Below are positions 5,106 through 60,126 of a stretch of DNA of 64,000 nt, piece by piece. A program made the position numbers and the translations under genes. Every line of letters starts with the position of its first letter. Position 1 is the first letter of the stretch. Origin of the DNA: Prorocentrum cordatum. Lineage: Eukaryota. Below the pieces are notes generated by a model, which was not told the origin of the DNA, searched no databases, and worked only from the letters and a program-made list of their open reading frames with translations. The stretch covers positions 496,001 to 560,000 of the forward strand of contig CAUYUJ010000314.1 of assembly GCA_963575745.1 (NCBI GenBank), given 5' to 3'.

Positions 5106-5127
5106 TCCGTAGCCATTTTGGCTCAAG
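5106..5127 (+). other. Perfect genomic copy of the dinoflagellate spliced leader (DinoSL)
   Basis: TCCGTAGCCATTTTGGCTCAAG matches DCCGTAGCCATTTTGGCTCAAG at 22/22; followed by CCATTTGTTTTGCCCAG (5128-5144), resembling an older truncated SL relic. Confidence 0.95.
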
Positions 5128-10229: not shown

Positions 10230-10277
10230 AACTTGTGGCGCGAATGGTAAGCCTTGCATTTCAAGGCGGCGAACAGT

Positions 10278-13516: not shown

Positions 13517-15980
13517 CCATAGGAGGTCCTCAAGAGGGCCCTCATTTTCCAGGAGAGCCCCACGGCAGCACAGAATGGCCTCCAGACGGCCCAAGAGGCC
13601 CCCAAGACGGCCCAAGAGGCCCCAAAGGCGCCCCAAGAGGCCTTCAGGAGAGCCCCCAAGAGGCAAGCATCGTCCCATTCCCTACGGAAGACGTGGAAGT
13701 TTAGCATCTTCGCTTTTTGTGTCGTAGCAGCGTCCAAGACGGCCCAAGAAGCCTGCGAGATCGCCCCAAGGCGGCCGAAGAGGCCCCCAAAGAGAGCTTC
13801 AAGCCGGGCCAAGAGGACCCCAAGACTGCCCCAAGATCGCCCAAAAGAAGCTCACGAGGCCCCCAAAGGCTCCCAAGAGAGACCCACGAGGGCCATGGGA
13901 GGTCCCCAAGAGGGCCCTAATTTTCCAGGAGAGCCTGACGGCAGCACAAGACGGCCTCCAGACGGCCCAAGAGGCCTCCAAGACGGCCCAAGAGGCCCCA
14001 AAGACGCCCCAAGAGGCCTTCAGGAGAGCCCCCAAGAGGCAAGCATGGTCCCATTCCCTACGGAAGACGTGGAAGTTTAGCATCTCCGCTTTTTGTGTCG
14101 TAGCAGCGTCCAAGACGGCCCAAGAAGCCTGCGAGATCGCCCCAAGGCGGCCGAAGAGGCCCCCAAAGAGAGCTTCAAGCCGGGCCAAGAGGACCCCAAG
14201 ACTGCCCCAAGACCGCCCAAAAGAAGCTAACGAGGCCCCCAAAGGCTCCCAAGAGAGACCCACGAGGGCCATGGGAGGTCCCCAAGAGGGCCCTAATTTT
14301 CCAGGAGAGCCTGACGGCAGCACAAGACGGCCTCCAGACGGCCCAAGAGGCCTCCAAGACGGCCCAAGAGGCCCCAAAGACGCCCCAAGAGGCCTTCAGG
14401 AGAGCCCCCAAGAGGCAAGCATGGTCCCATTCCCTACGGAAGACGTGGAAGTTTAGCATCTTCGCTTTTTGTGTCGTAGCAGCGTCCAAGACGGCCCAAG
14501 AAGCCTGCGAGATCGCCCCGAGGCGGCCGAAGAGGCCCCCAAAGAGAGCTTCAAGCCGGGCCAAGAGGACCCCAAGACTGCCCCAAGACCGCCCAAAAGA
14601 AGCTCACGAGGCCCCCAAAGGCTCCCAAGAGAGACCCACGAGGGCCATGGGAGGTCCCCAAGAGGGCCCTAATTTTCCAGGAGAGCCTGACGGCAGCACA
14701 AGACGGCCTCCAGACGGCCCAAGAGACCTCCAAGACGGCCCAAGAGGCCCCAAAGACGCCCCAAGAGGCCTTCAGGAGAGCCCCCAAGAGGCAAGCATGG
14801 TCCCATTCCCTACGGAAGACGTGGAAGTTTAGCATCTTCGCTTTTTGTGTCGTAGCAGCGTCCAAGACGGCCCAAGAAGCCTGCGAGATCGCCCCAAGGC
14901 GGCCGAAGAGGCCCCCAAAGAGAGCTTCAAGCCGGGCCAAGAGGACCCCAAGACTGCCCCAAGACCGCCCAAAAGAAGCTCACGAGGCCCCCAAAGGCTC
15001 CCAAGAGAGACCCACGAGGGCCATGGGAGGTCCCCAAGAGGGCCCTAATTTTCCAGGAGAGCCTGACGGCAGCACAAGACGGCCTCCAGACGGCCCAAGA
15101 GGCCCCAAGACGGCCAAAGAGGCCCCAAAGGCGCCCCAAGAGGCCTTCAGGAGAGCTCCCAAGAGGCAAACATCGTCCCATTCCCGAAGGAAGACGTGGA
15201 AGTTTAGCATCTTCGCTATTTGTGTCGTAGCAGCGTCCAAGACGGCCCAAGAAGCCTGCGAGATCGCCCCAAGGCGGCCGAAGAGGCCCCCAAAGAGGGC
15301 TTCAAGCTGGGCCAAGAGGACAAGACCACCCAAAAGAAGCTCACGAGGCCCCCAAAGGCTCCCAAGAGAGACCCACGAGGGCCATAGGAGGTCCCCAAGA
15401 GGGCCCTAATTTTCAAGAAGAGAGCCCCACGGCAGCGCAGACCGGCCTCCAGACGGCCCAAGAGGCCTCCAAGACGGCCGAAGAGGCCTCAAAGACGCCC
15501 CAAGAGGCCTTCAGGAGAGCCCCCAAGAGGCAAGCATCGTCCCATTCCCGATGGAAGACGTAGAAGTTTAGCATCTTCGCTTTTTGTGTCGTAGCAGCGT
15601 CCAAGACGGCCCAAGAAGCCTGCGCAATCACCCCAAGGTGGCCGAAGAGGCCCCCAAGAGGGCTTCGAGCTGGGCCAAGAGGACCCCAAGACTGTCCCAA
15701 GACGGCCCAGAAGAAGCTCACGCGGCCCCCAAAGGCTCCCAAGAGAGACCCACGAGGGCCATGGGAGGTCCTCAAGAGGCCCCCAGCTTTCCACGAGAGC
15801 CGGACGGCAGCACAAGACGGCATCCAGACGGCCCAAGAGGCCCCAAGACGGCCCAAGAGGCCCCAAAGGCGCCCCAAGAGGCCTTCAGGAGAGCTCCCAA
15901 GAGGCAAGCATCGTCCCATTCCCGAAGGAAGACGTGGAAGTTTAGCATCTTCGCTATTTGTGTCGTAGCAGCGTCCAAGT
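13509..15980. repeat. 376-bp tandem satellite rich in CCCAAGAGG (related partial unit at ~9890-10215)
   Basis: Matching ORF starts recur at 13895/14271/14647/15023 and 14469/14845 (period 376). Confidence 0.92.
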
Positions 15981-24190: not shown

Positions 24191-27100
24191 CAGTGGGCGG
24201 ACAAAATATCGCAAGTAATATGATCGTTCCGAGAAACAAGGTGACAATTTTGATCATATTCCATCGATATCCGAGGAGCTCCCCTTCCCCCGTATTTCAA
24301 TGTTGACTTGCATTATTTTGTCCTCCCGGACTTGGGGTGCTCGCTCGATGCCAACATTGAAGTTTAGGGGGCGGGGGCGTTTTGTCGAGGTGGCGTCGCA
24401 ATGTCGGCGCGGCCGTACGCGGCCAGGAGCAACTTGCAACATTTCGTCGTGCCACCGATGGAAGCACAGACTTTTCTATGACTCGAAGTGCACGGCATCT
24501 AACAATCATGCACCTCGTCAGCCCCAGTTCCCAGCACTCGAAGTCCTTGTCGCCAGCGCTGCGCCGGGCGTACTCCAGCAAGAAGCGCTTCCCGGTTCTG
24601 GGGGGCAGCGACTCCTTCGGGGCGCAGGAGCGCAGCGCAGACCAAGTTCGACAACTCCATCGAGGCGCTGCCTTTTTCCGAGGCGCTCGCCAGACATCAG
24701 CCCGTTTAATTGCGGCTTCTGGGGTTGCGTCAACCGCCGCCTCCGCAAGCAGCAGGAGGCCCTCGTGCTCGCCTGGTAAGAGGAAAGCCAGGGCCCATTT
24801 CGCGGCGCGCCTCAGGCGGGCTCTCCAGCGCGTGCCCGAGGCCATCTTGACTCCTCTGGTGAAGTCCATGGGCCGGCGCTGCAAGGCCCTCCAGCGCGTA
24901 AAGGGGAAGGACTTCGAGGAGCGATGCCCTGCGCGCCCCGCGCGGCTGCCGACGCCGCGAACACGCGGCCTTCCGCTGGCGGCCCGCCGCCGAGGACACG
25001 GGGAACATGCGAAGTTCATGCCCAGTCGCCGCGGTGGGGCGCCGGGACTTCGGGCCAGCCGCCCACCAGCCGTATGAGTGTAATTTCTTGAGTTGTATTT
25101 TTCCCGACTGGCAGCCGATCTTGACGCGCGCTCGCAATGGCCTTCCCGGAGTAAACATCCTGTCGCAGGGCCCTTTTGCCCATCTAAGCGCTGGCGTGCT
25201 CAGCCGAGGCCTGTCGGCTCATCCGCGGTGGGCGCCCGACGGGCATGAGTTGGTGCGGAGTGACGTTGACCTCCTGTCAGCTATTTCCAGGCCGGCGCCA
25301 GGGCCGCGCTCGGGCTGCGCCTGGAGCGCGAGCGGCCGCCCCTGGGCCGCGCGGCGGACTTGCGCGGGCTCGGCGCGGCAGGCTCTGCCTGGGCGATGCT
25401 GGCGCGTGGCCTGCTCAGAGCAGCGGGCGGCGACAGGGCGGCCCCGCGCCCGCCGCGCTTGCATTTGCCTCATTTGAAAACTCCAGTGCTATTTGAATAC
25501 CTATTTGAATACCTATTTGAATACCTATATGAAAACTGCAGCTATATGGGGATTTGCATTTGCTACGCGCGAATAGTAGAGTTAAAAAGAATGTATTTTC
25601 TTTCTTTCTATTTTCAAGTTTCAAATCGGTTCCCCCCCCATATAACTGAGGTTTTCAAATAGGTATTCAAATAGGTATTCAAATAGGTATTCAAATAGTA
25701 TTCCAATGTACTGGGAGTATTCAAATAGGCCAGATGCAGGCGCCGCGCGCGCCCCGCCACCCCGTCGTCGCCTGGCGCGCCCTGCCCCGCTGCGCGGCCG
25801 CGTGCCAGCACCGGGCGACGTTCGGCACAAAGCCTGGGCAGTGCCCAGCGCAGCCAAGGGTACGCCTGGCGATGCGATCGCAGCGAGGGCCGCGCATGTC
25901 CTCGTCGCGGCCCACGATCGGCCTGGCGCGGGCCAGGCGCGACGCGGGCTCGGCGCTGCTCGCCGGGCGAAGGCGAAGCCCAATATATTGTTCTGTTTTG
26001 CTTGCGCAGCGGAGGCAGCCCAGCGCAGCCCAGCTCAGGTCTGCGCGGCCCAATCCACCCGAGCTCAATATATTGCAGTCCCGTCCAGGTCAGCCCTGCG
26101 CAGGTGCGCCCAGGTCAGCCCAACTCGAACCAGCTGGATCCAGCTCAGACATCAGCGAGGCGTGAACCCTTCGGTCCAGTGGCGGCTCGGCTCCGGCTCG
26201 CACCCTGGTCGAAGCTCGGCAGTCGACCTTCGACCGAACGTCGACCCTGTACCCTTGATCATCCTCGCCATCATCCTTCCCCCAGTTCTCCGAGTCCCCC
26301 GCCCTCCGCGTCAGCCTTCACCCTGCAGGGGGATGACAAACGCAGTGGGCGGACAAAATATCGCAAGTTATATGATCGTTCCGAGAAACAAGATGACAAT
26401 TTTGATCATATTCCATCGATATCCGAGGAGCTCCCCTTCCCCCGTATTTCAATGTTGACTTGCATTATTTTGTCCTCCCGGACTTGGGGTGCTCGCTCGA
26501 TGCCAACATTGAAATTTAGGGGGCGGGGGCGTTTTGTCGAGGTGGCGTCGCAATGTCGGCGCGGCCGTACGCGGCCAGGAGCAACTTGCAACATTTCGTC
26601 GTCCCACCGATGGAAGCACAGACTTTTCTATGACTCGAAGTGCACGGCATCTAACAATCATGCACCTCGTCAGCCCCAGTTCCCAGCACTCGAAGTCCTT
26701 GTCGCCAGCGCTGCGCCGGGCGTACTCCAGCAAGAAGCGCTTCCCGGTTCTGGGGGGCAGCGACTCCTTCGGGGCGCAGGAGCGCAGCGCAGACCAAGTT
26801 CGACAACTCCATCGAGGCGCTGCCTTTTTCCGAGGCGCTCGCCAGACATCAGCCCGTTTAATTGCGGCTTCTGGGGTTGCGTCAACCGCCGCCTCCGCAA
26901 GCAGCAGGAGGCCCTCGTGCTCGCCTGGTAAGAGGAAAGCCAGGGCCCATTTCGCGGCGCGCCTCAGGCGGGCTCTCCAGCGCGTGCCCGAGGCCATCTT
27001 GACTCCTCTGGTGAAGTCCATGGGCCGGCGCTGCAAGGCCCTCCAGCGCGTAAAGGGGAAGGACTTCGAGGAGCGATGCCCTGCGCGCCCCGCGCGGCTG

Positions 27101-28759
27101 CCGACGCCGCGAACACGCGGCCTTCCCCTGGCGGCCCGCCGCCGAGGACACGGGGAACATGCGAAGTTCATGCCCAGTCGCCGCGGTGGGGCGCCGGGAC
27201 TTCGGGCCAGCCGCCCACCAGCCGATGAGTGTAATTTCTTGAGTTGTATTTTTCCCGACTGGCAGCCGATCTTGACGCGCGCTCGCAATGGCCTTCCCGG
27301 AGTAAACATCCTGTCGCAGGGCCCTTTTGCCCATCTAAGCGCTGGCGTGCTCAGCCGAGGCCTGTCGGCTCATCCGCGGTGGGCGCCCGACGGGCATGAG
27401 TTGGTGCGGAGTGACGTTGACCTCCTGTCAGCTATTTCCAGGCCGGCGCCAGGGCCGCGCTCGGGCTGCGCCTGGAGCGCGAGCGGCCGCCCCTGGGCCG
27501 CGCGGCGGACTTGCGCGGGCTCGGCGCGGCAGGCTCTGCCTGGGCGATGCTGGCGCGTGGCCTGCTCAGAGCAGCGGGCGGCGACAGGGCGGCCCCGCGC
27601 CCGCCGCGCTTGCATTTGCCTCATTTGAAAACTCCAGTGCTATTTGAATACCTATTTGAATACCTATTTGAATACCTATATGAAAACTGCAGCTATATGG
27701 GGATTTGCATTTGCTACGCGCGAATAGTAGAGTTAAAAAGAATGTATTTTCTTTCTTTCTATTTTCAAGTTTCAAATCGGTTCCCCCCCATATAACTGAG
27801 GTTTTCAAATAGGTATTCAAATAGGTATTCAAATAGGTATTCAAATAGTATTCCAATGTACTGGGAGTATTCAAATAGGCCAGATGCAGGCGCCGCGCGC
27901 GCCCCGCCACCCCGTCGTCGCCTGGCGCGCCCTGCCCCGCTGCGCGGCCGCGTGCCAGCACCGGGCGACGTTCGGCACAAAGCCTGGGCAGTGCCCAGCG
28001 CAGCCAAGGGTGCGCCTGGCGATGCGATCGCAGCGAGGGCCGCGCATGTCCTCGTCGCGGCCCACGATCGGCCTGGCGCGGGCCAGGCGCGACGCGGGCT
28101 CGGCGCTGCTCGCCGGGCGAAGGCGAAGCCCAATATATTGTTCTGTTTTGCTTGCGCAGCGGAGGCAGCCCAGCGCAGCCCAGCTCAGGTCTGCGCGGCC
28201 CAATCCACCCGAGCTCAATATATTGCAGTCCCGTCCAGGTCAGCCCTGCGCAGGTGCGCCCAGGTCAGCCCAACTCGAACCAGCTGGGTCCAGCTCAGAC
28301 ATCAGCGAGGCGTGAACCCTTCGGTCCAGTGGCGGCTCGGCTCCGGCTCGCACCCTGTTCGAAGCTCGGCAGTCGACCTTCGACCGAACGTCGACCCTGT
28401 ACCCTTGATCATCCTCGCCATCATCCTTCCCCCAGTTCTCCGAGTCCCCCGCCCTCCGCGTCAGCCTTCACCCTGCAGGGGGATGACAAACGCAGTGGGC
28501 GGACAAAATATCGCAAGTAATATGATCGTTCCGAGAAACAAGGTGACAATTTTGATCATATTCCATCGATATCCGAGGAGCTCCCCTTCCCCCGTATTTC
28601 AATGTTGACTTGCATTATTTTGTCCTCCCGGACTTGGGGTGCTCGCTCGATGCCAACATTGAAATTTAGGGGGCGGGGGCGTTTTGTCGAGGTGGCGTCG
28701 CAATGTCGGCGCGGCCGTACGCGGCCAGGAGCAACTTGCAACATTTCGTCGTGCCACCG
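24191..28759. repeat. Head-to-tail ~2.15-kb tandem repeat, 2.1 near-identical copies
   Basis: CAGTGGGCGGACAAAATATCGCAAG starts at 24191, 26343 and 28493; duplicated ORFs in the track; bounded on both sides by (CTA)n. Confidence 0.95.
25459..25740. repeat. Imperfect palindrome with inverted 12-mer arrays around an AT-rich spacer (second copy ~27610-27890)
   Basis: (TATTTGAATACC)x3...TATATGGGG, ~80-bp AT-rich spacer, CCCCATATA...(GGTATTCAAATA)x3. Confidence 0.9.
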
Positions 28760-29913
<1,154 letters not shown>

Positions 29914-29948
29914 GGTCAGAGGCTGTTCGGTAGCCTGTGTGTTTTCGC
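29914..29948 (+). repeat. Left terminal inverted repeat
   Basis: GGTCAGAGGCTGTTCGGTAGCCTGTGTGTTTTCGC. Confidence 0.9.
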
Positions 29949-30169
29949 ATATGCAGTAAGCGAATGCCCGCGCAGCGACGACGACGACGATGACTGTGGC
30001 AGCGGTGATGATAGAGCGTGTTTTGAGGCAGTCATGTCCCCATCGGGTCTCGCAGTCATCTCTTATGCGCTCCACACTGGTCAGCGTGAGTACCCACGCT
30101 GCACCCTTACACTGAAAAAAGCGACAGCCCCAAACTTTGCGTTTGAAGCAGCTTCGCCAGCGCCTGAAC

Positions 30170-31555
30170 TCAGCGGCCCAGCAGCTTGGCCAATGACTTG
30201 AGCGCGCCCTCAGACGTCGTCTCCGAGTGGCGCTTGTTGTACCGATACAGCCACGACCAAACGCGGTCGCGAATGTCCTCGTCAAGCACGCGGTGCACCG
30301 AGCCCTTGACCGAGCGCTTCTTCGCGTGCGTGATGGGGATCGCCTTGTCGAGCTCACGCCAGGCCCTGTCGATGCACTGCGTGCCCGCCAGCGTGGCCAA
30401 TTTCTTAGCATTGCGGCTCCTCCCGCGCACGGCCTTGGTGAACTGGTTGTTCTTGTGCGACACCTGGTGCACCCTGAACTTCTTCTCCCTGTACTTGGTG
30501 GACGCGAGTTTGGGCCACGCCTTGTTGCCGTCGGTGTGGACGTTGGACTTCGGGGCGATTCTGTCGAGCAGGGAAGTCGCCAAGACGCCCTGGTACGACT
30601 CGGGAGGCGGGCGCGCCCTCGGTGGGACAAGCTTGTGGAACGGCAGGAAAGACAGGTATAGCTTGCCCATGCCCCGCTGGATCGCGCCAGCGACTTGCAC
30701 GTGCAGCTGGAAGTAGCTCGGGGGCTTCCTGACGTATTTGTCCTGAATCAGGTGCTGGTAAGACTCGTTCTTCGGCGACACGTGGATCTTCGCGACCTGG
30801 TGGGCGTCCAACTCCACGTCGCCCCCGATCGTGCCTCTCCGATTCAGCAGCTGGCCCTGCCTCGCCTCTGCGTCGCGACACATCTTCGCGAACCGCCGGG
30901 CAATGAACTTGCCGCACCCCGCGTGGGCCGCGAGGGCGCTGGGGCCAGGCGGGGCGATGCGGTCATGGCGGGAGTACTCCTTCAGCAGCGCCAGCGCCTG
31001 CTGCGGCAGCAGCCGCATCTGCTTGAAAGGCGTCAGCTGCATGACGTAGAAGCGCCTGTTGCAGCTCCACGCGTTGCACCGGTAGAACGCGCGCTCCGAG
31101 CCCCCGATGCGCTGCTGGTGCAGGTGCGCTGACAATGCCACTCCACAGCACGGGCACTTCTTCGGAATCTTGATGATGCCACAGTCCTTCAGCTGGCGTA
31201 CGGCGCTGTCCAGCGCGACGGCGTCGTTCTTGATGAAGAGCTCCTTGCGCCCGCTCGCCCCGCGAACCAGCTGGTTGGTCACCTTCCTCTTCGCAGCCTG
31301 CTTGGTGCTCACTGCAGGGTTCGGGGTGTACGCCTTGCGCCGCTTCTTCACAGCTGCGGCGCCCGTCGTCCGAACGCCCATGCGCGGCTTGGTCCTCCTC
31401 TGTCCTGCCCGCAGCTTCAAGACAGCAAGTAACTCTCGAATCTTATTCGCGCCCGTCGCCTTGCACGTGGCCACGGTGTGCCCCGTCTTGCCGCAGCAAG
31501 TGCAGCGCCTGCACGCGCGCGCCGCGGGCGCTGGCGACCCGCGCCGCAGGCCCAT
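30170..31555 (-). CDS. Merlin/IS1595(ISXO2)-like transposase with N-terminal CCHC zinc knuckle, 461 aa
   Basis: CTCCGKTGHTVATC knuckle; zinc ribbon CPCC...YRCNAWSC; catalytic motifs GGDVELDA, VHTDGNKAW, VSHKNNQF and GTQCIDRAW correspond to IS1595-family VEIDE, TDG..AY, VNH...F and TN.IE..W. First ATG at 31555. Confidence 0.85.
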   Translation of the reverse strand: MGLRRGSPAPAARACRRCTCCGKTGHTVATCKATGANKIRELLAVLKLRAGQRRTKPRMGVRTTGAAAVKKRRKAYTPNPAVSTKQAAKRKVTNQLVRGASGRKELFIKNDAVALDSAVRQLKDCGIIKIPKKCPCCGVALSAHLHQQRIGGSERAFYRCNAWSCNRRFYVMQLTPFKQMRLLPQQALALLKEYSRHDRIAPPGPSALAAHAGCGKFIARRFAKMCRDAEARQGQLLNRRGTIGGDVELDAHQVAKIHVSPKNESYQHLIQDKYVRKPPSYFQLHVQVAGAIQRGMGKLYLSFLPFHKLVPPRARPPPESYQGVLATSLLDRIAPKSNVHTDGNKAWPKLASTKYREKKFRVHQVSHKNNQFTKAVRGRSRNAKKLATLAGTQCIDRAWRELDKAIPITHAKKRSVKGSVHRVLDEDIRDRVWSWLYRYNKRHSETTSEGALKSLAKLLGR

Positions 31556-31605
31556 CGGGGCGCCAGGTGAGCGGGCGCAGCCCACGAGCGCTGACCTCGA
31601 ACGAG

Positions 31606-31627
31606 CTCGAGCCAAAACGGCTGCGGG
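31606..31627 (-). other. DinoSL relic upstream of the transposase
   Basis: Minus strand CCCGCAGCCGTTTTGGCTCGAG matches DinoSL at 18/22, 50 nt before the ATG. Confidence 0.75.
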
Positions 31628-31932
31628 AAGCAACAGGGGTGCCGAGGCAATGGCATGGCTTAGCAGCAGCGGCAAAACATCCCAAGCTTTTCAACCTCGG
31701 AGGCCCCGTCCCCGCAGACATCACAGACGTCCGAGCACACGTTCGGGCGCCTATACATCTCTTATGCAAGCAGCTCTGGCAAGCATGGATACCCACGCCG
31801 CAGCGCCCAGACCGCCCCACCTGGCGAGACGCCCCATCGGGCCCAGGACGCGTGGCCCAGCGGACTTCAGCCCGCCGCGCCACCCTGAACAGGGCGCCCC
31901 GCCCGCTGTCACGGCCTCACTTCTCACTTCGC

Positions 31933-33967
31933 CTAGTCCATGCTGCCGCCGAACCCGAACGCGTCCTCCTCCTCCTCGCCTGCGAACGCTTGCTCGTCTT
32001 CGTCGGCGCCCGCCCTCGCGGCGTTCGCGTCCCTCATGAATGCCTCGCACAGGTCATACATGGAAATCGGGGTCTCCTCGCAATCGTCGACAGAAATCGC
32101 ATGCTCCTTGCTGTCCACGTCGGGCACCGCGATGCACTCTTTGCTCGCGGCGAGGGCCGCCGACCGCTCCAGGAAGACGTCGTTCTCGATGAGGATGGCC
32201 GCGCACGAGGAAGCGCCGTCGCCCACCCTGGACCTCTTGGAAGGAGGCTCGTCCGTCGAGTCCACGTCAATGGGGTTCCGCTTCGTCTGGTCGGCGAGTT
32301 CGGAGTTCATCGTGAAGAAATCCTCCTCCTGCTCGCGCTTCACCTGCACGCGGTGGACCTCTGGGTCGGCGAAGATACTGCCAAAGAGATGCTGCTCCTC
32401 GCTCACCAGCGCGTCCAGCTCGGCAGAGTCGCGAAGTATACCGCGTTCGGTGTAGGCCTCAAGGACGCCCTTCGCTTTCTGGGTGATGTAGGAGCCCTCG
32501 TTCTTGTACGTGACGATCGTGGAGGACGCGTGCAAGCCCCGAGGCCGGACGTGGACGTAGTGCTCGGTGTTCACGATCACATTGGCACGCTTGAAGATGG
32601 CCTCCAGGTCCGCCTCAGAACACGGGGGAAAGCGGGCCTCACCATTTTGATGAAGGCCTCGTTCGTGATGCGGTCCGCTGCGCCCCCTAGGACAGCCCCT
32701 GCCCTGACCTGCCTGCCGTCGAGCGTGACCGTTGGGTCGAGGCTGGCGTCGAACTTGTTATCGGCCATCATCCTGGGTTGGCACTGCACGAACTTACTGG
32801 CGCCCCACCTCTCACGGGTGAGGGACTCCCTGCAGCTGACGTCCAAGAAGCTTTTGAACACCTTCACGGACAGGTCCGACATGTCGCCGTCGTCGAGGCA
32901 GCAGCCGCACCAGCGCTCGCCTGGCTCGTCGCGGTAAAAATCGAGGTCCGTCGCCGTCTTGAACATGGGAACAACGTCGGTGTCGCGGGCACCCTGGTCC
33001 TTTGGAACCTCGAGAGGGCCATCATCAGCACATGCATCAGAGGTGTCTTGCCCATGCCGCCGAGGCCAAGGAATGTGATCGACTTGCGCTTCAGCGACGG
33101 AATCAGCGGCTCTAAGATCTTCTGCGCCCATGGCTCCACGTCGCCCCACGCGATCGGCAGGTACGTGTACTTGCTCGCCGTCACCGACTTGCTCCGCAAC
33201 TGCGCGAGACACTCTCGGATGTCTTTCTTGTCCAAGCACTTGATCTTGCTGCCTGGATCCGCGAGCTCCTGCAGCATCCACCTCGTCTGTTTCAGGTCGG
33301 CGTTGTTGTACGGCGCGTGCGCGCGGATGTAATCGATCGCCACTCCTATTTCGGATTGGCTGACCACCCTGTCGGCCAAGTTTTGGTCGAACGACCACCA
33401 GCGATACTGCAGGCCACCGAGCTTGTCCAACATGAAGTTGAAAGCGAGTGCGCCGACTCTCACCTGATTGCCCCAGTTAGTCTTCATCAATACGCCCTGG
33501 CACACCGCGCCGTACACATCGTACTCCTGCCGATCGTCGAACTTATAGCGCTTGATGATGGTGTACGAGTTCTCGGCGGCGGCCTCCTTGATCATGACGA
33601 TCTGCAACTTGAACGGACACACGACGACGGCCGCCGGCTTCATCTTACCAGGCAGGTTCATGTACATCTGCTGCGCCATGAAGCCTGCGACCTCGTCTGG
33701 GTCGAAGGCGTCGGTGTAGCTTTGGACAACGTCAACGACGTGCGTCATTTTTCCTGAAGATTGGTCCAGAGATGTGAGCGGCAAGTCCATCATGCCTGTG
33801 ACGCCGTTCTCCTGCTTTCCAGAGAAAGCGCACTTCGGCAGCTGCTTAATCTTCAGCCCCTTCACGATGCTGCACGCCATGGCGAACGTGTAACGCGGCT
33901 CGCCCGTCTCCGCCTGCACCTCGAGTTCCTCAGCCAAAGAATTGGGAGCACCCACGACGGCGGCCAT
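31933..33967 (-). CDS. Superfamily 3 helicase-like protein (~678 aa reconstructed), split by two frameshifts (~33000, ~32625)
   Basis: Joins ORFs 32864-33991, 32577-33398 and 31933-32580: Walker A KSITFLGLGGMGKT, Walker B CCLDD, B'-like KSFLDV...ERWGASK, motif C PRMMADN, Arg-finger-like EAIFKR, and an acidic tail. Confidence 0.75.
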
Positions 33968-34029
33968 GGGGGGCGAAAGCTGCAGCGTCAACTCTCGACG
34001 GTGGCGACGTGTGCATGATCATTACGATA

Positions 34030-34051
34030 CTTGAGCCATAACAGCTGCGAC
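34030..34051 (-). other. DinoSL relic upstream of the helicase gene
   Basis: Minus strand GTCGCAGCTGTTATGGCTCAAG matches DinoSL at 17/22 with a perfect 3' TGGCTCAAG, 62 nt before the ATG at 33967. Confidence 0.65.
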
Positions 34052-35247
34052 GGTATGATGAAGTGATGTGATGAATGGTGATCGGGGCGGGTTGGCCCAC
34101 CGAGGGCTCTGCTGGGCCCGGGGGGGGGCCCTTCTTGAATGTTTCGGGGGGGCCGTTTCGGCGACTTTCTCGTGCAAAAAATAAGGGAAAACTGAGCCGA
34201 GTTAAGAAAAACTCGGCTGAGTTATGAATTGCAAAAACTGCAACCGAAGAACACCAAACAATGACATCTAAGGGGCCCAAGGGGGCCCCCATACTGCCCA
34301 AGAATCCTCCAGGACGGCCCCAAGAAGGCCCGAAAACCAAAGAAATCCATCTAAAGAGCCCAAAAGCGCCCCAAGATCGCCCAAGAATCCTCCAGGACAG
34401 CCCCAAGACGGCCCGAAACGCCTCCATGACGGCTCCAACACAGCCTGAGAGACCCCGAGGAGTCTCAGTAATGCCCCAAGACGGCCCGAAGAACCCCCGA
34501 GAGGTCCCGATACACCCCACATCGCGCACCCCAAGGACCCAACGAAGCCTCTGAGAGACCCCCCACCGCACGCCTTGAATAGCCCACCGAATGGTTTCCA
34601 CGAGCCCAGGAGAGGCGCTCACGAGGCCTTCCGCGTTGCATCTTTGGGAGGGAGGAGGAGGGAGGAAGGAAGGAAAGAAGGAGAGGGAGGAGGTTGACGA
34701 AGGAGGAAGAAGGGAGAGGCAGGAGGAGAAGAGAGGGAGGAGGTTGACGAGCGCAGGACGAGCGGGGGGGCGAGGGAGGAAGAGAGAGGGAGGAGGTTGA
34801 CGAAGACGACGACGACGACGACGAAGACGACGACAGGGGGCACACGTCACGGCCCCCTGCGCGCTCCCCGACGCATAACTGCCACGGGTGCTGGGCTGGC
34901 GCGACGGCGGGATTTGCAGCAGGATGCTGCGTATCTGTGTGCGAGCAGGAAGACTGCTCTCGCCAGAGGAAGCACGAACAGCGGCAGGACGAGGATGTTG
35001 GGAATGGGGGATGAAGCAAGTGCGGTTGCCACGCTATATAGAATCATACCCAGGAGGGAAGGGGGCGGCGGGGAGAGTTAGGGAGACGGGGGAGGAGGCG
35101 CGAGAACTGGGGAGGGCGAGAGGGGGGAGAAGCATCAGCAAGAAGAAAAAGAGGGGAAGTGGCGGGGCCTGCAGGGAGGGGAAGGGGGAGCGCTCGCGGA
35201 GCAAAAGGAAAGTGGATTTTTTTGGGGCTGCGCAGCAGCTGCGTGGA

Positions 35248-36279
35248 TCACCTGCGGGCGGGCTTCTTCTTGAGCATGTGTTTCTTCACCTTGCCCTGCG
35301 GCGAGGGCGCCTCGTCCCGATCTTTGCCGCCCCACGAGCCGGTCAAGTATGTCTGATAAATCTCCATCCCCTTACAGGCATTCTGCGATCCATCCGTAAC
35401 GAAGAAGTGTGGAAACATTTTCTTGGTGTCGTCTTCGAAAGTGATGGTCTTCGGCACCTGCTTGTACACGCGGTCGCACAACTGCTTCATGGTGTTCGTG
35501 CCGCGCGGCCCGCGCTGGCCGACGGCGTTCGCGATGCGCAGGAAGGCCGCCGAATTCTTCCCGCCCTTGATGTACCCTGCCAGGGTCTCCTTGTCCATCC
35601 TGCAGGTGAACACTGGGAAGGCGCATCCGGCGTCCCACAGTTGCAGGAACTCCAGCGTATGGCTGAAGATCAGCGTGCCGCCGAACAACTTCATGTTCTC
35701 CAATACAGAAACGAATTTGGCAGGCGTGTCCGCGAGGACGAGATCGTACAGCGTCTGCGGACTTTTCCATAAGGGCTGGAGCAGCGCGTCCAATGTATAG
35801 CCAGCGCCCCACGTCTTCTGTTCAGTGGTATGCTGGTTTCTCTTCCGCTTGGGGTTGGCCTTGATGCCGTACATCGGCGTCTCGTGCAGGCAGGTTTTCT
35901 CGTAGAAGGCCGCCCACACCTTGAAAGAATCGAGCAGGACCGACCCGTTTTCGGATAAGTACGACAGCGCCTTCTCGCTGCGCACGCAGAGAAAGTACAG
36001 GGCAGTGAGGACAATCATGGCCCTCGCGTGGGTGTCGCGCTGCACGCCGCCCCAGCTCCGCCACCACTGAGCGCCCATGTTATAGAAAGCATCGTCGCCG
36101 CCATCTTTGTACACTGGATGGAGGTTCAGGCCAAGCACTACGTCCTTGACGCAAAGACCCGAGAGAGGATTCACCAGAGTGACCAGGGCGTGCCAAAGCT
36201 CCAACGTCATCTCGCCGCCCTCGAAAGCAACGGGCGTTTTCCAGCCATCAAAAACTTTTAAAAAAACCAATGTTTTCAC
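35248..36279 (-). CDS. Uncharacterised ~340-aa protein with a basic NLS-like tail; true start uncertain
   Basis: Long, high-complexity ORF inside the TIRs, co-oriented with the other two genes; the 5' end runs into a T-rich repeat insertion. Confidence 0.7.
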   Translation of the reverse strand: MKTLVFLKVFDGWKTPVAFEGGEMTLELWHALVTLVNPLSGLCVKDVVLGLNLHPVYKDGGDDAFYNMGAQWWRSWGGVQRDTHARAMIVLTALYFLCVRSEKALSYLSENGSVLLDSFKVWAAFYEKTCLHETPMYGIKANPKRKRNQHTTEQKTWGAGYTLDALLQPLWKSPQTLYDLVLADTPAKFVSVLENMKLFGGTLIFSHTLEFLQLWDAGCAFPVFTCRMDKETLAGYIKGGKNSAAFLRIANAVGQRGPRGTNTMKQLCDRVYKQVPKTITFEDDTKKMFPHFFVTDGSQNACKGMEIYQTYLTGSWGGKDRDEAPSPQGKVKKHMLKKKPARR

Positions 36280-36700
36280 AACTTAGTCTGTCTGGGACTG
36301 GCCGGCCACCCAAGCCGAGTAAGTTGTGAAAACATTCGTTTTTTTTTTTTTGAGTTTTTTGTGACCCTCACAGGGATTAGTTGGATTTTTTTGGATTTTT
36401 TTGGATTTTCAATGGTTTTCCAATGTTTTTGGATTCCCAGCCCCCCGAGCCCCAGGCCGACTAAGTAGCGAAACGATTGCGTTTTTTTGGTTTTTTGGGA
36501 CCCTCACAGGGATTAATTGGATGTTTTTTGGATTTTTTTGGATTTTCAATGGTTTTCCAATGTTTTTTGATTCCCAGCCCCCCGAGCCCCAGGCCGACTA
36601 AGTAGCGAAAAGATTGCGTTTTTTTGAGTTTTTTGGGACCCTCACAGGGATTAATTGGGTTTGTTTTGGGTTTATTGGTTTTTCAATGGTTTTGGTGTTG
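36260..36700. repeat. ~140-bp tandem repeat x3 plus a 16-bp inverted repeat, probable secondary insertion
   Basis: GACCCTCACAGGGATTA recurs three times; AATGTTTTCACAACTT...AAGTTGTGAAAACATT at 36269-36336. Confidence 0.75.
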
Positions 36701-36745
36701 TTATCTCCGATTGCTCCTTCCTCCTCCTCCTCCTCCTCCTCCTCC

Positions 36746-36776
<31 letters not shown>

Positions 36777-36910
36777 ACTCCTCCTCATGGTTCAACGCAC
36801 GTGGGAGTTTCACACACGCATGGCAGCGGAACAACACATACAACCAACAGCAAACATGAGACACGCAACAACGCAGCAAACAAGTAGCACAACAAGTTAA
36901 ACGCAGCACA

Positions 36911-36945
36911 GCGAAAACACACAGGCTACCAAACAGCCCCTCAGC
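36911..36945 (-). repeat. Right terminal inverted repeat
   Basis: GCGAAAACACACAGGCTACCAAACAGCCCCTCAGC is the reverse complement of 29914-29948 with 4 mismatches. Confidence 0.9.
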
Positions 36946-42020
<5,075 letters not shown>

Positions 42021-42130
42021 CCGTGGTGTGTGTTACCACGCTTGAACGAAGGCAAGCGGTAAGGATTTGGGTTTGGGTTTGGGAAAGCGCCCGAACAGAA
42101 GAAAAACAAAAAAAACAAAAAACAAAAAAA

Positions 42131-42222
<92 letters not shown>

Positions 42223-43123
42223 TGATACGGATCCTTCTGGCAAGTGGAGCTCCTCAGAATTCGGCATAAGAAAAACATGTGAGAAGGATCCCTCTGGAAA
42301 GTGCAGCTCTTCTGGGATCGGCAGAAGGGGCGATTTGTCATATGGAATTGAAATAAGGGTCCCTCTGGAAAGTGGAGCACCTCTGGAACCAGCAAAAAAG
42401 GCAATTTGCCATACATAATGTGAATAAAGATCTTTGTGGAAAGTGGACTTTTTCGGAATACGGCAGAAAAGGCAAATCGTTATATCGAATGTTTAGAAGG
42501 ATCCCTCTGGAAAGTGGAGCTCTCGGGAAACCTGCAAAAAAATATGTCTTGCATAGGGTTATGGCAAAATGCCAATGGAAAGCGGAGTTCCTCTGGAAGG
42601 GTGGGCCGAAGGCCTGAGCGAGAATAATCGTGAACCCCTTGGGCCTTAGGAGGCCCTGGGCCCCAATAGCGACTTGCCGTGGCAGGCGGATGGGCCGAAG
42701 GCTAGAGTGAGAATAATCGTGAACCCCTTGGGCCTTGGGGGGCCCTGCACCCCGTGAGCGGCTTGCCGTGGCAGGCGGATGGGCCGAAGGCCTGAATGAG
42801 AATAGTCGTGAACCTTTGGGCCCTGGGAGGCCCTAGACCCAGGATGGGCTCAAGCAGGCCCGCTGCGGGGGGGGGGTCCTATAGCCTCCTGGGGCCTCCT
42901 GGGGGTTCCTGGGACCTCTTGGGGCCTCTTGGGGCCTCTTGGGGTCTGTTGGATGGGCTGGTGGGGGTCCGCGAAGCGTGAACAATTAAAACGGCATGCG
43001 GAAGTCACACGGAGTCGCGTTCCTGGAAAGAGCCAATATGCACGCACCTACGCCAACACACGCATATTCGCGCCATTTGACAGGGCTAATACATAGGCCC
43101 AGGCGTCAAGATATGCATATTCG

Positions 43124-46804: not shown

Positions 46805-49800
46805 GGATCGACCCACGAGCCCGGAAAGGAATATAGAAATGTAAGACATGGCAACGTTTCAAAGACACTCGATTGGGCGACGGGCACGTGCCATGCTGAG
46901 TGTATCGATCTTGGTGTACCGTGCCGAGGGCTGTGCTGTGCTGCGCCGTGCTGAACTGCGATGTGCCATGCCGCGATTGTGCTCTACAGCGTTGTGGAAC
47001 GAGTCCTCCTTTGCATCCGAGTCCTGACCGAACTGATCTGAACCTTAAGCTCGAGCTGCCTGAGCACATAGCAACTGCCCCAGAGCTAAGTGACAGGGGG
47101 GCATGCTAGGAAGACACGCCGCGGAAAGTTCCAAAGGGACGCGCCAGGCGACGTGACAGTGGACGTGCCATGGGGGCGCACCGCGGGACGTGCCTTCAAG
47201 GGGGCGCGCTACGGAACGTGCCAGTGGACGTGCCACGGGACGTGCCAGGGGACGCGCCGCGCGACGTGCCAGGGGGACTCGCCAAGGGACGCCCCGCGGA
47301 ACGTGCCAAGGAACGCGCCAGGTTGCAATGCTGAGTGTATCGATCTTGATGTACCGTGCCTAGGGCTGTGCTGTGCTGCGCCGTGTTGTGCCATGCCGCG
47401 ATTGTGCTCTATAGCGTTGTGGATCGAGTCCTCCTTTGCATCCGAGTCCTGACCGAACTGATCTGGATCGTAAGCTCGAGCTGCCTGAGCACATAGTCCA
47501 CACAGTAGCTGCCCCAGAGCTAATTGTCAGGGGGACATGCCAGGAAGACGCACCGCGGAACGTTCCAAGGGACGTGCCAGGGGACGTGCCAGGGGACGTG
47601 CCGCGGGGACGCACCGCGGGACGTGCCAAGGGGACGCGCTACAGAACGTGCTGGGGACAAGCGTCGTGTTGGTGGCCTGGGCACGTAAAAACACATGGTA
47701 CCAGTTCGGGACAACCATGTTAGATACCCTTTGGGTGGCCTGCACACGTAAGTATCCTGGCGAAGGGCCCAACCATACGCAATTCCGAATGCCGCCGTTG
47801 TAAGTATCGTCGTTGGTGGAACACCCGATGGGGCCACGAAGCGTGTGAGAGGTGCGCCAAATGGAGGTGGAACTGCATGCGGACCCTGCCTCTGGGGCCT
47901 TCGGTGGAGCACCCTGTGGGGCCGCGAAACGTGTGAGGGGTGCGCCGAAATGGAGGTGGAACTGCATGCGGACCCTGCCATTGGCGCCCTCGGTGGAGCT
48001 CCCTATGGGGCCGCGAAACGTGTGAGGGGTGCGCCGAAATGGAGGTGGAACTGCATGCGGACCCTGCCACTTGGGCCTTAGGCGGAGCTCTCTATGGGGC
48101 CACGAAACGTGTGAGGGGTGTGCCGAAATGGAGGTGGAACTGCATGCGGACCGTGCCACTTGGGCCTTAGGCGGGGCTCCCTATGACGCCACGAAACGTG
48201 TGAGGGGTGCGCCGAAATGGAAGTGGAACTGCATGCGGACCCTGCCACTTAGGCCTTAGGCGGAGCTCCCTATGGGGCCACGAAACGTGTGAGGGGTGCG
48301 CCGAAATGGAGGTGGAACTGCATGCGGACCCTGCCACTGGGGCCTCAGGTGGAGCTCCCTATGGGGCCACGAAACGTGTGAGGGGTGCGCCGAAATGGAG
48401 GTGGAACCGCATGCGGACCCTGACACTTGGGCCTTCGGTGGAGCTCCCTATGGGGCCACGAAACGTGTGAGGGGTGCGCCGAAATGGAGGTGGAACCGCA
48501 TGCGGACCCTGACACTTGGGCCTTCGGTGGAGCTCCCTATGGGGCCACGAACACGTGTGGGGCCTTCGGTGGAGTGCGCCGAAATGGAGGGGCGCATGCG
48601 GACCCTGACACTGGGGCCTTCGGTGGAGCTCCCTATGGGGCCACGAAACGTGTGAGGGGTGCGCCGAAATGGAGGTGGAACCGCATGCGGACCCTGACAC
48701 TTGGGCCTTCGGTGGAGCTCCCTATGGGGCCACGAAACGTGTGAGGGGTGCGCCGAAATGGAGGTGGAACCGCATGCGGACCCTGACACTTGGGCCTTCG
48801 GTGGAGCTCCCTATGGGGCCACGAAACGTGTGAGGGGTGCGCCGAAATGGAGGTGGAACCGCATGCGGACCCTGACACTGGGGCCTTCGGTGGAGCTCCC
48901 TATGGGGCCACGAAACGTGTGAGGGGTGCGCCGAAATGGAGGTGGAACCGCATGCGGACCCTGACACTTGGGCCTTCGGTGGAGCTCCCTATGGGGCCAC
49001 GGAACGTGTGAGGGGTGCGCCGAAATGGAGGTGGAACCGCATGCGGACCTTGCCACTGGGGCCTTCGGTGGAGCCCACTATGGGTCCACGAAACGTGTGG
49101 CCATGATGGAGACGGCGATGATGATGACGACGATGGTGATAAGAACGATGATGATGATGATGCTGATGATGACGGTGACGATGACGATGATGATGATGCT
49201 GATGATGAGAGGAGGAGGAGGAGGAGGGGGAGGAGGAGGAGAGGAGGAGAGACGCGGGGCACCGTCTCTTCAAAACGAGGACCCAACACCACAGGATGGT
49301 TGGGAAAAACACGTGGCTCCAGCTCGGGACAATCATGTTAGAGATCCCATTGCGTGGCTTGAGCAAGCCGAAAAAGACACGTGGTTCCAGCTCGGGACAG
49401 TCATGTAGATACCCCCTTGCGTGACTTGGATACGCTGAACTCGCGCTCCCGCTCAAGGCATCCTCGCAATGTCTTCCTTGGAGAGGCCCCCAAAGCGCAA
49501 CCCCCTGTTCAGAGCAAGAAAACGCTATTTTTCTGGATCGGGGGATGTGTTCGGGTAGCGCTGTTCGGCCCCCCGTGCGTTTTCTGATAATTCGGCGTTA
49601 GGCCCGACGCCATGTTAGATGCCCCCTTGGGTGGCCGGGGCGCGCAAAAACACGTGGTGCCAGTTCGGGACAACTATATTAGATACACCCAGGAGTGGCC
49701 TGGACATGTTAAAACACGTGGTCTTTGGTCGGGACAGTCATGTTGGATACCCCCTTGGGTGGCCAGGACATGTAAAAACACGTGGTTCCAGCTCGGGACA

Positions 49801-60089: not shown

Positions 60090-60126
<37 letters not shown>

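What the first reader, a model, noticed from the sequence alone, without database searches (positions are those of the whole stretch)
31606..34051. The transposon's own genes carry spliced-leader relics: a DNA transposon assembled from retro-copied mRNAs
Seen: DinoSL-like 22-mers on the coding strand 50 nt before the transposase ATG (31606-31627, 18/22) and 62 nt before the helicase ATG (34030-34051, 17/22). Established: genomic SL relics in dinoflagellates mark reintegrated trans-spliced mRNAs. Inference: both genes passed through an mRNA/cDNA stage, or the relic's terminal AG now serves as a trans-splice acceptor, so that several genes can be expressed from one element.
Basis: partly seen in the sequence, partly recalled or inferred. 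Interest (0 to 1): 0.78.

Follow-up and report, generated by a model that had tools for sequence, protein, structure and literature searches.

The report
Spliced-leader relics inside a DNA transposon
Two genes of a decayed mobile element bounded by inverted repeats in a dinoflagellate genome each carry, just before their start codon, a worn copy of the 22-base leader that is added only to finished messenger RNAs; this shows they were once copied back from RNA, which is routine for dinoflagellate genes but which I did not find described for a cut-and-paste transposon.

Summary
On the minus strand, 31606-31627 matches the dinoflagellate spliced leader (DinoSL) at 18/22 and 34030-34051 at 17/22. 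They lie 50 nt and 62 nt upstream of the conserved start codons of two co-oriented genes. Chance is excluded: about 0.0015 such matches are expected in such positions, and 2 are seen. Similarity is confined to the 22-mer, and neither site continues like an SL-RNA gene.

Both genes lie inside a ~7.0 kb unit bounded by a 28-nt inverted repeat (29921-29948 / 36911-36938). The unit interrupts one (TAC)n satellite, with a phase shift that fits an 8-bp target duplication. It holds three genes:
- an intact ORF with sub-threshold IS1595/Merlin-like DDE similarity;
- a P-loop NTPase, SF3-helicase-like by Foldseek only, broken by two deletions that other copies lack;
- a 5'-truncated third gene.

So these are real SL relics inside a TIR element. 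This is a new setting for a well-known process: more than 20% of Symbiodinium genes carry such relicts, best conserved at -50 to -100. "Assembled from retro-copied mRNAs" is only one possible route, and neither gene has a poly(A) remnant. Use of the relics as trans-splice acceptors could not be tested. Interest is moderate.

The parts
28660..29913 (+). Left flank: (TAC)n/(CTA)n satellite, same motif and strand as the right flank; ends ...TACTACTA
   Evidence: Trinucleotide counts and flank print-out; sequence
29914..29948 (+). Left terminal inverted repeat (core 29921-29948 matches the right end; the outer 7 nt match 4/7)
   Evidence: the DNA search: 2 matches in the window, 0 in 100 shuffles; read by eye
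30170..31555 (-). Intact 461-aa ORF: CX2CX4HX4C knuckle and CxxC...CxxxxC ribbon (read by eye), then a probable IS1595/Merlin-like DDE domain (sub-threshold)
   Evidence: ORF; Pfam PF12762 E 0.027, 14.9 bits against cut-off 27; NCBIfam NF033547 E 0.009, 15.9 bits against cut-off 75; ESM Atlas neighbours are IS1595 clusters at 0.88-0.89; 11 homologues, start codon conserved
31556..31605 (-). 50-nt leader between relic 1 and the transposase ATG
   Evidence: One X1 contig lacks 31562-31610 (joint with 4 shared letters) but keeps the 5' 17 nt of the relic
31606..31627 (-). DinoSL relic 1, 18/22, full length, keeps the internal AG, TTTTGG and the terminal AG
31628..31932 (-). 305-nt spacer (3' region of the NTPase gene); no A-run next to relic 1
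   Evidence: Sequence read on the minus strand
31933..33967 (-). P-loop NTPase gene (Walker A GLGGMGKT), a pseudogene here: three frames joined by two frameshifts near 33002 and 32623
   Evidence: ORFs. Other copies carry +4 nt behind 33002 and +G behind 32623. 312 homologues. The homologue model matches SF3 helicases best by Foldseek, but Z 7-8.5 ties with other ATPases
33968..34029 (-). 62-nt leader with two out-of-frame upstream ATGs (34022-34020 and 34016-34014); an X1 contig shows other letters at one base of each
   Evidence: differences 34022 T>C and 34015 A>G
34030..34051 (-). DinoSL relic 2, 17/22, full length, keeps the internal AG and the terminal CTCAAG
   Evidence: An X1 contig of 357 nt (10 differences) runs through it, 33715-34071
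35248..36282 (-). Third gene, open for 344 codons and lacking about 80 N-terminal residues present in homologues of 409-431 aa; its own leader is therefore lost
   Evidence: Lead to DUF6589 from the ESM Atlas only; no Pfam hit
36260..36693 (.). Palindrome (36260-36345) and a ~142-nt tandem repeat that replace the 5' end of the third gene
   Evidence: Self-blastn; sequence
36911..36945 (-). Right terminal inverted repeat (core 36911-36938)
36946..42500 (+). Right flank: (TAC)n satellite, begins TACTACTA

Best explanation
The two 22-mers are genuine, mutated DinoSL relics in the 5' leaders of two intronless genes. These genes belong to a ~7.0 kb DNA transposon copy bounded by terminal inverted repeats. 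The copy carries a probable IS1595/Merlin-like DDE transposase, a P-loop NTPase and a third gene of unknown function, and it sits inside a (TAC)n satellite of a dinoflagellate nuclear genome.

Shown: the relics are real; they lie inside the inverted-repeat-bounded unit; this copy is decayed; other diverged copies exist.

Inferred: at some time in this element lineage, mature trans-spliced mRNAs of its own genes were reverse-transcribed, and the cDNA was written into a TIR-bearing element. The more likely route is cDNA-templated repair or recombination with an existing copy, which would leave the TIRs in place and need not carry a poly(A) tail. De novo assembly of an element from separate retrocopies is less likely. 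The relics have since been carried along with the element.

Inferred function, if any: as proposed for relict leaders in general, the AG dinucleotides of the relic offer a ready trans-splice acceptor and the TTT(T/G) stretch a core-promoter-like motif. Each gene of the element could then be matured as its own mRNA wherever the element lands.
For: - Relics real and non-random: 18/22 and 17/22 on the coding strand at -50 and -62. About 0.00145 are expected in such places, P(>=2) about 1e-6.
- Likeness is limited to the 22-mer.
- The bases after each site are not an SL-RNA intron start.
- Both align over all 22 positions, including the 5' CCG.AG part.
- The start codons downstream are the conserved starts of the two protein families.
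- Both ORFs are colinear with their homologues, so they have no introns.
- Unit bounded by a 28-nt inverted repeat: 2 matches, 0 in 100 shuffles.
- Both flanks are the same (TAC)n array on the same strand. The left flank ends and the right flank begins with TACTACTA, a phase shift of 2 mod 3 that fits an 8-bp duplication.
- Other copies exist. In X1, 38 contigs were laid: 9 at >=99%, 12 at 95-99%, 6 at 90-95% and 11 under 90% identity. Contigs in X1 and X3 carry the letters missing at both frameshifts of the window copy.
- One X1 contig runs through relic 2, and another keeps the 5' 17 nt of relic 1 next to a 49-nt deletion.
- Published context: relict DinoSL lies within 500 bp upstream of 23.24% and 22.28% of gene models in two Symbiodinium genomes. 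It is best conserved at -50 to -100, and TTT(T/G) is preferentially kept (PMC5585692, passages; PMC6050394, passages).
- Re-use of the AG of a relict leader as an acceptor is described in PMC3229502 (passages).
Against: - No poly(A) or A-rich remnant follows either gene, so the classic retrocopy signature is incomplete.
- Only one complete copy could be read. Whether every TIR-bearing copy has the relics, and whether their consensus is closer to DinoSL, is not known. The difference table was cut (149 rows not shown), and the contigs that cover the relics could be alleles of this same locus.
- The transposase assignment is sub-threshold in both profile libraries. Only 1 of 4 family members scanned against Pfam, and 1 of 12 against NCBIfam, shows it. 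Its model is poor in the catalytic part (pLDDT under 50), and the fold search gave nothing significant (best E 0.19).
- The target duplication cannot be read unambiguously inside a trinucleotide array.
- The route (cDNA-templated repair) is inference only.
- Relic 2 has lost the TTTT run (TTAT), which weakens the promoter idea for it.
Confidence: 0.55

Rival explanations
1. One reading: the element was built de novo from separate retrocopies. Two (or three) SL-tagged cDNAs of different mRNAs integrated side by side in one orientation, and the block later acquired inverted repeats and became mobile.
For: Each gene has its own full-length relic at a leader-like distance. The genes are intronless and co-oriented.
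Against: No poly(A) remnants lie between or after the genes. It needs several independent insertions at one spot plus de novo TIRs that the encoded transposase recognises. The NTPase family also occurs fused to a near-threshold KDZ transposase domain (P0083, 25.4 bits against cut-off 26.6), which suggests it is an old transposon companion rather than a captured passer-by.
Confidence: 0.12
2. These are not cargo of a mobile DNA element. They are plain dead retrogenes, that is retro-copied transposon mRNAs lying in satellite DNA. The 28-nt inverted repeat belongs to the satellite's own structure or to an unrelated element.
For: Relict leaders are common before dinoflagellate genes and pseudogenes (PMC5585692). 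The NTPase is frameshifted and the third gene truncated. The window is full of inverted and tandem repeats.
Against: The inverted repeat is unique to the two ends (2 matches, 0 in 100 shuffles). It sits exactly at the two junctions with one and the same (TAC)n array. It encloses a DDE-like ORF. There are no poly(A) remnants.
Confidence: 0.12
3. SL look-alikes kept or evolved for function, without any reverse transcription. The element carries leader-like promoter or acceptor modules because TTT(T/G) and AG are what dinoflagellate expression needs.
For: TTTTGG and both AGs are kept in relic 1, and CTCAAG in relic 2. The promoter proposal is in PMC5585692 and PMC6050394.
Against: Likeness extends over all 22 positions, including the 5' part that has no proposed promoter role. 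Convergence on 17-18 of 22 bases twice is far less likely than descent from the leader itself. Relic 2 has lost the TTTT run.
Confidence: 0.08
4. Chance resemblance in GC-rich DNA.
For: Matches of 15-16/22 are at chance level in this window (7.1 and 1.1 expected).
Against: >=17/22 is expected 0.133 times and >=18/22 0.007 times per window. The chance of two such matches on the coding strand within 100 nt of long-ORF starts is about 1e-6.
Confidence: 0.01

Closest known systems
[quoted passage not shown] 2017, PMC5585692)
   Same: A degenerate 22-nt leader on the coding strand, 50-100 nt before the start codon of an intronless gene, with the AG sites (and, in relic 1, the TTTTGG) kept.
   Different: Here the tagged genes are the genes of a TIR-bounded DNA element, not host genes. 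Two neighbouring genes are each tagged. No poly(A) remnant is present. No tandem truncated relicts are present: only the same three sites reach >=12/15 of the 15-nt core.
IS1595 / Merlin superfamily of DDE transposons (Pfam PF12762, NCBIfam NF033547)
   Same: Best, though sub-threshold, profile hits over residues 327-377. A zinc ribbon lies before the catalytic region (read by eye). The TIRs are short. The flank phase fits an 8-bp duplication; that length for this superfamily is recalled, not checked.
   Different: Scores are below the curated cut-offs. There is an extra N-terminal CCHC knuckle. The element is multi-gene (NTPase plus a third gene), whereas typical members carry one gene. The third catalytic residue may be D rather than E (read by eye from A1).
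SF3 helicase domains of viral Rep/NS1/E1 proteins (AAV Rep40/68, B19V NS1, papillomavirus E1)
   Same: Top Foldseek matches of the homologue model (E 2.5e-4 to 4.6e-4). VIA Z 8.5 (rmsd 8.0, 224 aligned) and 8.2 (rmsd 3.8, 168 aligned). Some alignments include the helical region before the P-loop (model residues 195 onward).
   Different: Z values tie with PilT/GspE, ClpB, BchI, MCM, RecA-like and other ATPases. There is no Pfam hit. The N-terminal 190 residues are not matched to any nuclease or primase fold. Helicase activity is unproven.
Viral genes acquired by Symbiodiniaceae that have a genomic DinoSL upstream (PMC9651163)
   Same: Foreign or selfish genes in these genomes also carry an upstream leader: 13 of 59 within 2 kb (passages).
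   Different: Those are single endogenised viral genes, mostly with introns (only 4 of 59 are single-exon), not the cargo of a TIR element.
cDNA or gene-fragment capture by DNA transposons during gap repair (Pack-MULE-type transduplication; recalled, no paper read)
   Same: TIRs are kept while internal sequence is replaced or added from another template. This would explain leader-tagged, intronless genes between intact TIRs without poly(A) tails.
   Different: Here the sequences written in would be the element's own coding genes, not host fragments. No junction microhomologies or a parent copy could be examined.

Membership tests
DinoSL relict-tagged retrogene | Match to the DinoSL on the coding strand within 500 bp upstream of the ORF, beyond chance | tested here: met
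   18/22 at -50 and 17/22 at -62; P about 1e-6
DinoSL relict-tagged retrogene | Not an SL-RNA gene (no intron-like continuation after the 22-mer, no RNA family hit) | tested here: met
   The bases after the sites are CT.. and TA.., not GT. Rfam at gathering threshold gave 0 matches in the window. Whether Rfam holds a dinoflagellate SL-RNA family was not checked, so the sequence reading carries this row.
DinoSL relict-tagged retrogene | Intronless coding sequence | tested here: met
   The transposase ORF aligns with P0001 and P0002 over 96-97%. The NTPase aligns with P0007 over residues 10-323, and its later frames resemble the rest of P0007 (read by eye).
DinoSL relict-tagged retrogene | Poly(A) remnant at the 3' end | tested here: not met
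   There is no A-run before relic 1 or before the left TIR. It may have decayed or never been copied.
DinoSL relict-tagged retrogene | A relic-less (often intron-bearing) parent copy elsewhere in the genome | not testable with these tools
   No whole genome is held; there is no other copy in the window
DinoSL relict-tagged retrogene | Transcripts with a new leader joined at or in the relic | not testable with these tools
   No RNA run could be laid
IS1595/Merlin DDE transposon | DDE_Tnp_IS1595 domain at or above the curated score | tested here: not met
   Pfam 14.9 bits against 27; NCBIfam 15.9 bits against 75. 1 of 4 family members matched in Pfam and 1 of 12 in NCBIfam.
IS1595/Merlin DDE transposon | RNase-H-like catalytic fold | tested here: inconclusive
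   Model pLDDT is 61.6, under 50 in the catalytic part. Foldseek best E is 0.19; integrases and transposases are among the top rows but not significant.
IS1595/Merlin DDE transposon | Terminal inverted repeats | tested here: met
   28-nt repeat at 29921-29948 and 36911-36938, differing at one position; 0 matches in 100 shuffles
IS1595/Merlin DDE transposon | Target-site duplication of 8 bp (length recalled) | tested here: inconclusive
   The flanks are TACTACTA | element | TACTACTA, but any length of 2 mod 3 fits in a (TAC)n array
SF3 helicase | P-loop ATPase fold closest to SF3 members, standing above other ATPase classes | tested here: inconclusive
   Foldseek top rows are Rep/NS1, but VIA Z 8.5-7.8 for SF3 ties with Z 7.9-7.3 for BchI, FlaI, DotB, PilT and ClpB
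DUF6589 (PF20231) for the third gene | Profile match to PF20231 | tested here: not met
   0 of 6 family members hit any Pfam model at E <= 1. The only lead is ESM Atlas feature likeness, 0.93 with low recognition of 1190.

The most novel reading that the evidence does not exclude
A family of dinoflagellate cut-and-paste transposons renews its multi-gene cargo through its own trans-spliced mRNAs, by cDNA-templated repair of element copies. The element thereby carries built-in leader relics that act as portable trans-splice acceptors or promoter modules, so each gene can be expressed from any insertion site. That would be a DNA transposon with an obligatory or recurrent RNA step in its evolution. 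The strand-asymmetric difference spectrum against other copies (T>C 52 against 16-19 for the other transitions) might be a trace of an RNA/cDNA stage.
Probability: 0.18. Interest if true: 0.7.

Novelty: new variant of a known kind. Interest (0 to 1): 0.42.

Why it matters
Relict spliced leaders are the accepted tag of mRNA recycling in dinoflagellates, and are used to count and date retrogenes. If they occur inside TIR-bounded DNA transposons, three things follow.
- The RNA-to-DNA traffic also reshapes class II elements, blurring the line between cut-and-paste and retro-copied sequence in these genomes.
- A relic upstream of a gene need not mark an independent retroposition event, because it can be multiplied by DNA transposition. 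That would inflate retrogene counts and distort burst dating based on relict divergence.
- It offers a simple answer to how a multi-gene transposon gets each gene expressed in an organism where every mRNA must be trans-spliced.

The element's gene set is itself uncharacterised: an IS1595-like ORF, an NTPase family with 312 relatives and no Pfam model, and a third conserved family.

Tried and rejected
- Whole-genome copy census: no genome is held for this window. The window itself has no second copy of any of the three genes or of the element.
- RNA evidence: no RNA holder was listed among the 5 runs returned, so 5' ends, acceptor use and expression could not be examined.
- Read laying used contigs of four runs of guessed kind 'DNA?'. 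Its difference table was cut (149 rows not shown), so I cannot say whether other copies differ inside the relics.
- Related loci:
A4 then gave 432 pattern matches, none confirmed, and P0007 gave 38 pattern matches, none confirmed.
  - Viral contigs with A4, A1, A6 and P0011 gave no confirmed relative.
  - A 20-mer of the TIR gave 0 matches in viral contigs. It gave 1 in genome contigs, in a bacterial MAG; I reckon about one such match is expected by chance in 596 billion bases, so I dismissed it.
- Rfam at gathering threshold: 0 matches in the window.
- PDB sequence profile search with the NTPase alignment: only Walker-A-level hits, best E 0.091.
- PHROGs: nothing meaningful.
- Pfam on 37 NTPase or third-gene relatives: one near-threshold KDZ hit (P0083) and two marginal P-loop hits.
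- Transposase fold: the model is too poor to use.
- The N-terminal ~190 residues of the NTPase were not matched to any fold; they were not folded alone.
- Earlier findings of this scan: nothing relevant.
- The two substitutions shared by the relics (T5>C, A10>G) were considered as a sign of a variant leader or a common origin. With 4 and 5 mismatches, two shared positions are expected about one time in five (my own hypergeometric estimate), and the flanks are unrelated, so I dropped this.
- Literature: searches, and term look-ups inside seven papers, found no report of leader relics inside a DNA transposon. No supplementary tables were opened. The retrogene lists of PMC5585692 and Table S9 of PMC9651163 could contain transposase genes.
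Full report
**1. What the window is.**
A perfect 22/22 dinoflagellate spliced leader (DinoSL) stands at 5106-5127 (+). It is followed by ordinary sequence, not an intron. The window is GC-rich, gene-poor and full of satellites. This is dinoflagellate-type nuclear DNA. No whole genome is held for it.

**2. The observation.**
Scanning both strands for the 22-mer gave 18/22 at 31606-31627 (-) and 17/22 at 34030-34051 (-), exactly as reported. It also gave the perfect copy, one 16/22 and two 15/22 sites. With at most 3 mismatches to the 21-mer, 2 sites are found, and none in 100 shuffles.

In 300 first-order Markov simulations of the window, the mean number of sites was:
- 7.1 at >=15/22;
- 1.1 at >=16/22;
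- 0.133 at >=17/22;
- 0.007 at >=18/22.

So the 15-16/22 sites are noise and the two sites of the finding are not. Position makes it stronger. The window has 14 ATG-ORFs of 300 aa or more. That leaves 0.00145 chance matches of >=17/22 expected within 100 nt upstream on the coding strand, and the probability of two is about 1e-6.

Relic 1 ends 50 nt before the ATG of a 461-aa ORF. Relic 2 ends 62 nt before the ATG at 33967. Both start codons align with the first residues of homologues.

An alignment of the two leaders and the perfect copy shows likeness only in the 22-mer. The mismatches are mostly transitions. Neither site is followed by GT, so these are not SL-RNA genes. A scan for the truncated 15-nt core found only the same three sites at >=12/15, so there is no sign of repeated rounds of recycling.

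**3. The surroundings: an inverted-repeat-bounded unit.**
Reading outward from the genes, a 28-nt inverted repeat appears at 29921-29948 (+) and 36911-36938 (-). The two arms differ at one position. There are 2 matches in the window and none in 100 shuffles. The next 7 nt outward match 4/7.

Immediately outside both ends lies the same trinucleotide satellite on the same strand, (TAC)n, at 28660-29913 and at 36946 to about 42500. So the ~7.03 kb unit (29914-36945) interrupts one satellite array. The left flank ends, and the right flank begins, with TACTACTA. This is a phase shift of 2 mod 3, which fits a target duplication of 8 bp, but 2, 5 or 11 bp fit as well. This is the anatomy of a class II (cut-and-paste) transposon insertion.

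**4. Its genes, all on the minus strand.**

(a) 30170-31555 is an intact 461-aa ORF. It has an N-terminal CX2CX4HX4C knuckle, a CxxC...CxxxxC ribbon (both read by eye), and a region that gives sub-threshold hits to IS1595-type transposases:
- Pfam PF12762, E 0.027, 14.9 bits against cut-off 27;
- NCBIfam NF033547, E 0.009, 15.9 bits against cut-off 75;
- the nearest named ESM Atlas clusters are also IS1595 (0.88-0.89).

Only 1 of 4 members scanned against Pfam, and 1 of 12 against NCBIfam, gives the hit. The predicted structure is poor in the catalytic half, and the fold search is not significant (best E 0.19). 'Probable IS1595/Merlin-like DDE transposase' is as far as the evidence goes. The family is small in the databases: 11 proteins, most on contigs of 0.7-2.5 kb.

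(b) 31933-33967 is a P-loop NTPase gene (Walker A GLGGMGKT) read in three frames. Contigs of other copies carry 4 extra letters behind 33002 (1 contig each in X1 and X3) and an extra G behind 32623 (1 contig each in X1 and X3). These lie exactly in the two frame-overlap zones. The window copy is therefore a pseudogene with two private deletions.

The family has 312 relatives at E <= 0.001; full-length forms are about 610-740 aa. None of the 31 relatives scanned has a Pfam domain above cut-off. One 1387-aa member has a near-threshold KDZ transposase domain (25.4 bits against 26.6).

A confident model of the 704-aa homologue P0007 (pLDDT 83.1) matches Rep/NS1-type SF3 helicases best by Foldseek (E 2.5e-4 to 4.6e-4). 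By VIA-align it scores Z 8.5 (rmsd 8.0, 224 aligned) and Z 8.2 (rmsd 3.8, 168 aligned). Many other P-loop ATPases tie at Z 7-7.9. 'Helicase' is therefore plausible but not shown.

(c) 35248-36282 is a third conserved family with homologues of 409-431 aa. The window copy lacks about 80 N-terminal residues. They are replaced by a palindrome and a ~142-nt tandem repeat, so any leader it once had is gone. The only functional lead is a weak ESM Atlas likeness to DUF6589, which Pfam does not confirm.

**5. Other copies.**
Contigs of run X1 (kind guessed as DNA) cover all 30 bins of 30100-34240. Of 38 laid contigs, 9 are at >=99%, 12 at 95-99%, 6 at 90-95% and 11 under 90% identity. Two marine metagenome runs hold parts of the stretch. 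So the genes are multi-copy, and less decayed copies exist.

A 357-nt X1 contig with 10 differences runs from 33715 through relic 2 to 34071. Its listed differences in the leader include one base of each of the two upstream ATGs of the window copy (34022 T>C, 34015 A>G). Another X1 contig skips 31562-31610; I read this from the sequence as a 49-nt deletion at a TGGC microhomology. It keeps the 5' 17 nt of relic 1.

Both contigs suggest that the relics are not private to this molecule. They could, however, be alleles of the same locus, and the difference table was cut.

**6. How this compares with what is known.**
Relict DinoSL upstream of genes is the published hallmark of mRNA recycling.
- In two Symbiodinium genomes, 23.24% and 22.28% of gene models have one within 500 bp. 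Relicts are best conserved at -50 to -100, and TTT(T/G) is preferentially kept and proposed to act as a core promoter (PMC5585692, passages; PMC6050394, passages).
- Re-use of the AG of a relict leader as the next acceptor is described in PMC3229502 (passages).
- Endogenised viral genes also carry upstream leaders, 13 of 59 (PMC9651163, passages).

Relic position, length and decay here are therefore entirely typical. What I did not find in print is a leader relic inside a TIR-bounded DNA transposon (searches; term look-ups). PMC5585692 contains no word beginning 'transpos' in its main text. Supplementary gene lists were not opened.

**7. Mechanism.**
*Shown:* real relics, inside the TIR unit, before intronless genes, and without poly(A) remnants.

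*Inferred:* mature mRNAs of the element's genes were reverse-transcribed and written into a TIR-bearing copy. I favour cDNA-templated repair or recombination with an existing element. It keeps the TIRs, needs no new ones and need not copy the poly(A) tail. Plain retrogenes that merely lie in a satellite would not explain a unique inverted repeat exactly at both satellite junctions. Functional mimicry without reverse transcription would not explain likeness across all 22 positions.

A present role of the relics as acceptor or promoter is plausible from the literature but untested here. In this copy it is moot, since two of the three genes are broken.

**8. Verdict.**
This is a new setting (a DNA transposon) for a well-known dinoflagellate process, seen in one decayed copy and without RNA evidence. 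The main practical point is that leader relics carried by a mobile DNA element can be multiplied without new retroposition events, which matters for retrogene counts and dating. Interest is moderate (0.42).

Noticed in passing
window 5106-5127 (+), with 3889-4250 / 8493-8853: A perfect 22/22 DinoSL is followed 74 nt later by an ATG that opens only a 113-aa Arg/Pro-rich ORF with no family hit. The site lies between long inverted repeats (257 nt at 93% plus 106 nt at 83%). It is directly preceded by a ~10-11-nt periodic CCCAAGA.GGCC repeat.
   Followed up: partly
window 30100-34240 against run X1: The differences between the window and other copies are strand-asymmetric: T>C at 52 places, against C>T 16, A>G 19 and G>A 19. 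On the coding (minus) strand, the window has A where the others have G. This could be hypermutation of this copy, an RNA/cDNA-stage signature, or RNA if the run's guessed kind is wrong.
   Followed up: no
window 4960-5095, 7773-7939, 10063-10198, 13772-15741, 34249-34560, 59914-60017: A dispersed family of ~10-11-nt periodic CCCAAGA.GGCC-type repeats. One block lies inside the element, between the third gene and relic 2.
   Followed up: no
window 25706-26458 and 27856-28608: A direct duplication about 2.15 kb apart, seen as two nearly identical 250-aa ORF translations, just left of the (TAC)n array.
   Followed up: no
window 10251-12767 (+): An 838-codon open frame with a polycystin cation channel domain (PF08016, E 2.2e-9). 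It is the only ORF scanned outside the element with a family hit above its curated cut-off.
   Followed up: no
window 47786-49249: A tandem array of an 89-nt unit, 14 overlapping 300-nt copies at up to 92% identity.
   Followed up: no
window 58793-59071 / 59833-60111: A 279-nt inverted repeat, 97% complementary, 761 nt apart, with a second nested pair (111 nt, 89%). This may be another foldback or TIR structure.
   Followed up: no
protein P0083 (relative of the NTPase): A 1387-aa relative joins the NTPase domain to a near-threshold KDZ (Kyakuja-Dileera-Zisupton) transposase domain. This hints that the uncharacterised NTPase family is a recurrent partner of unrelated transposases.
   Followed up: partly
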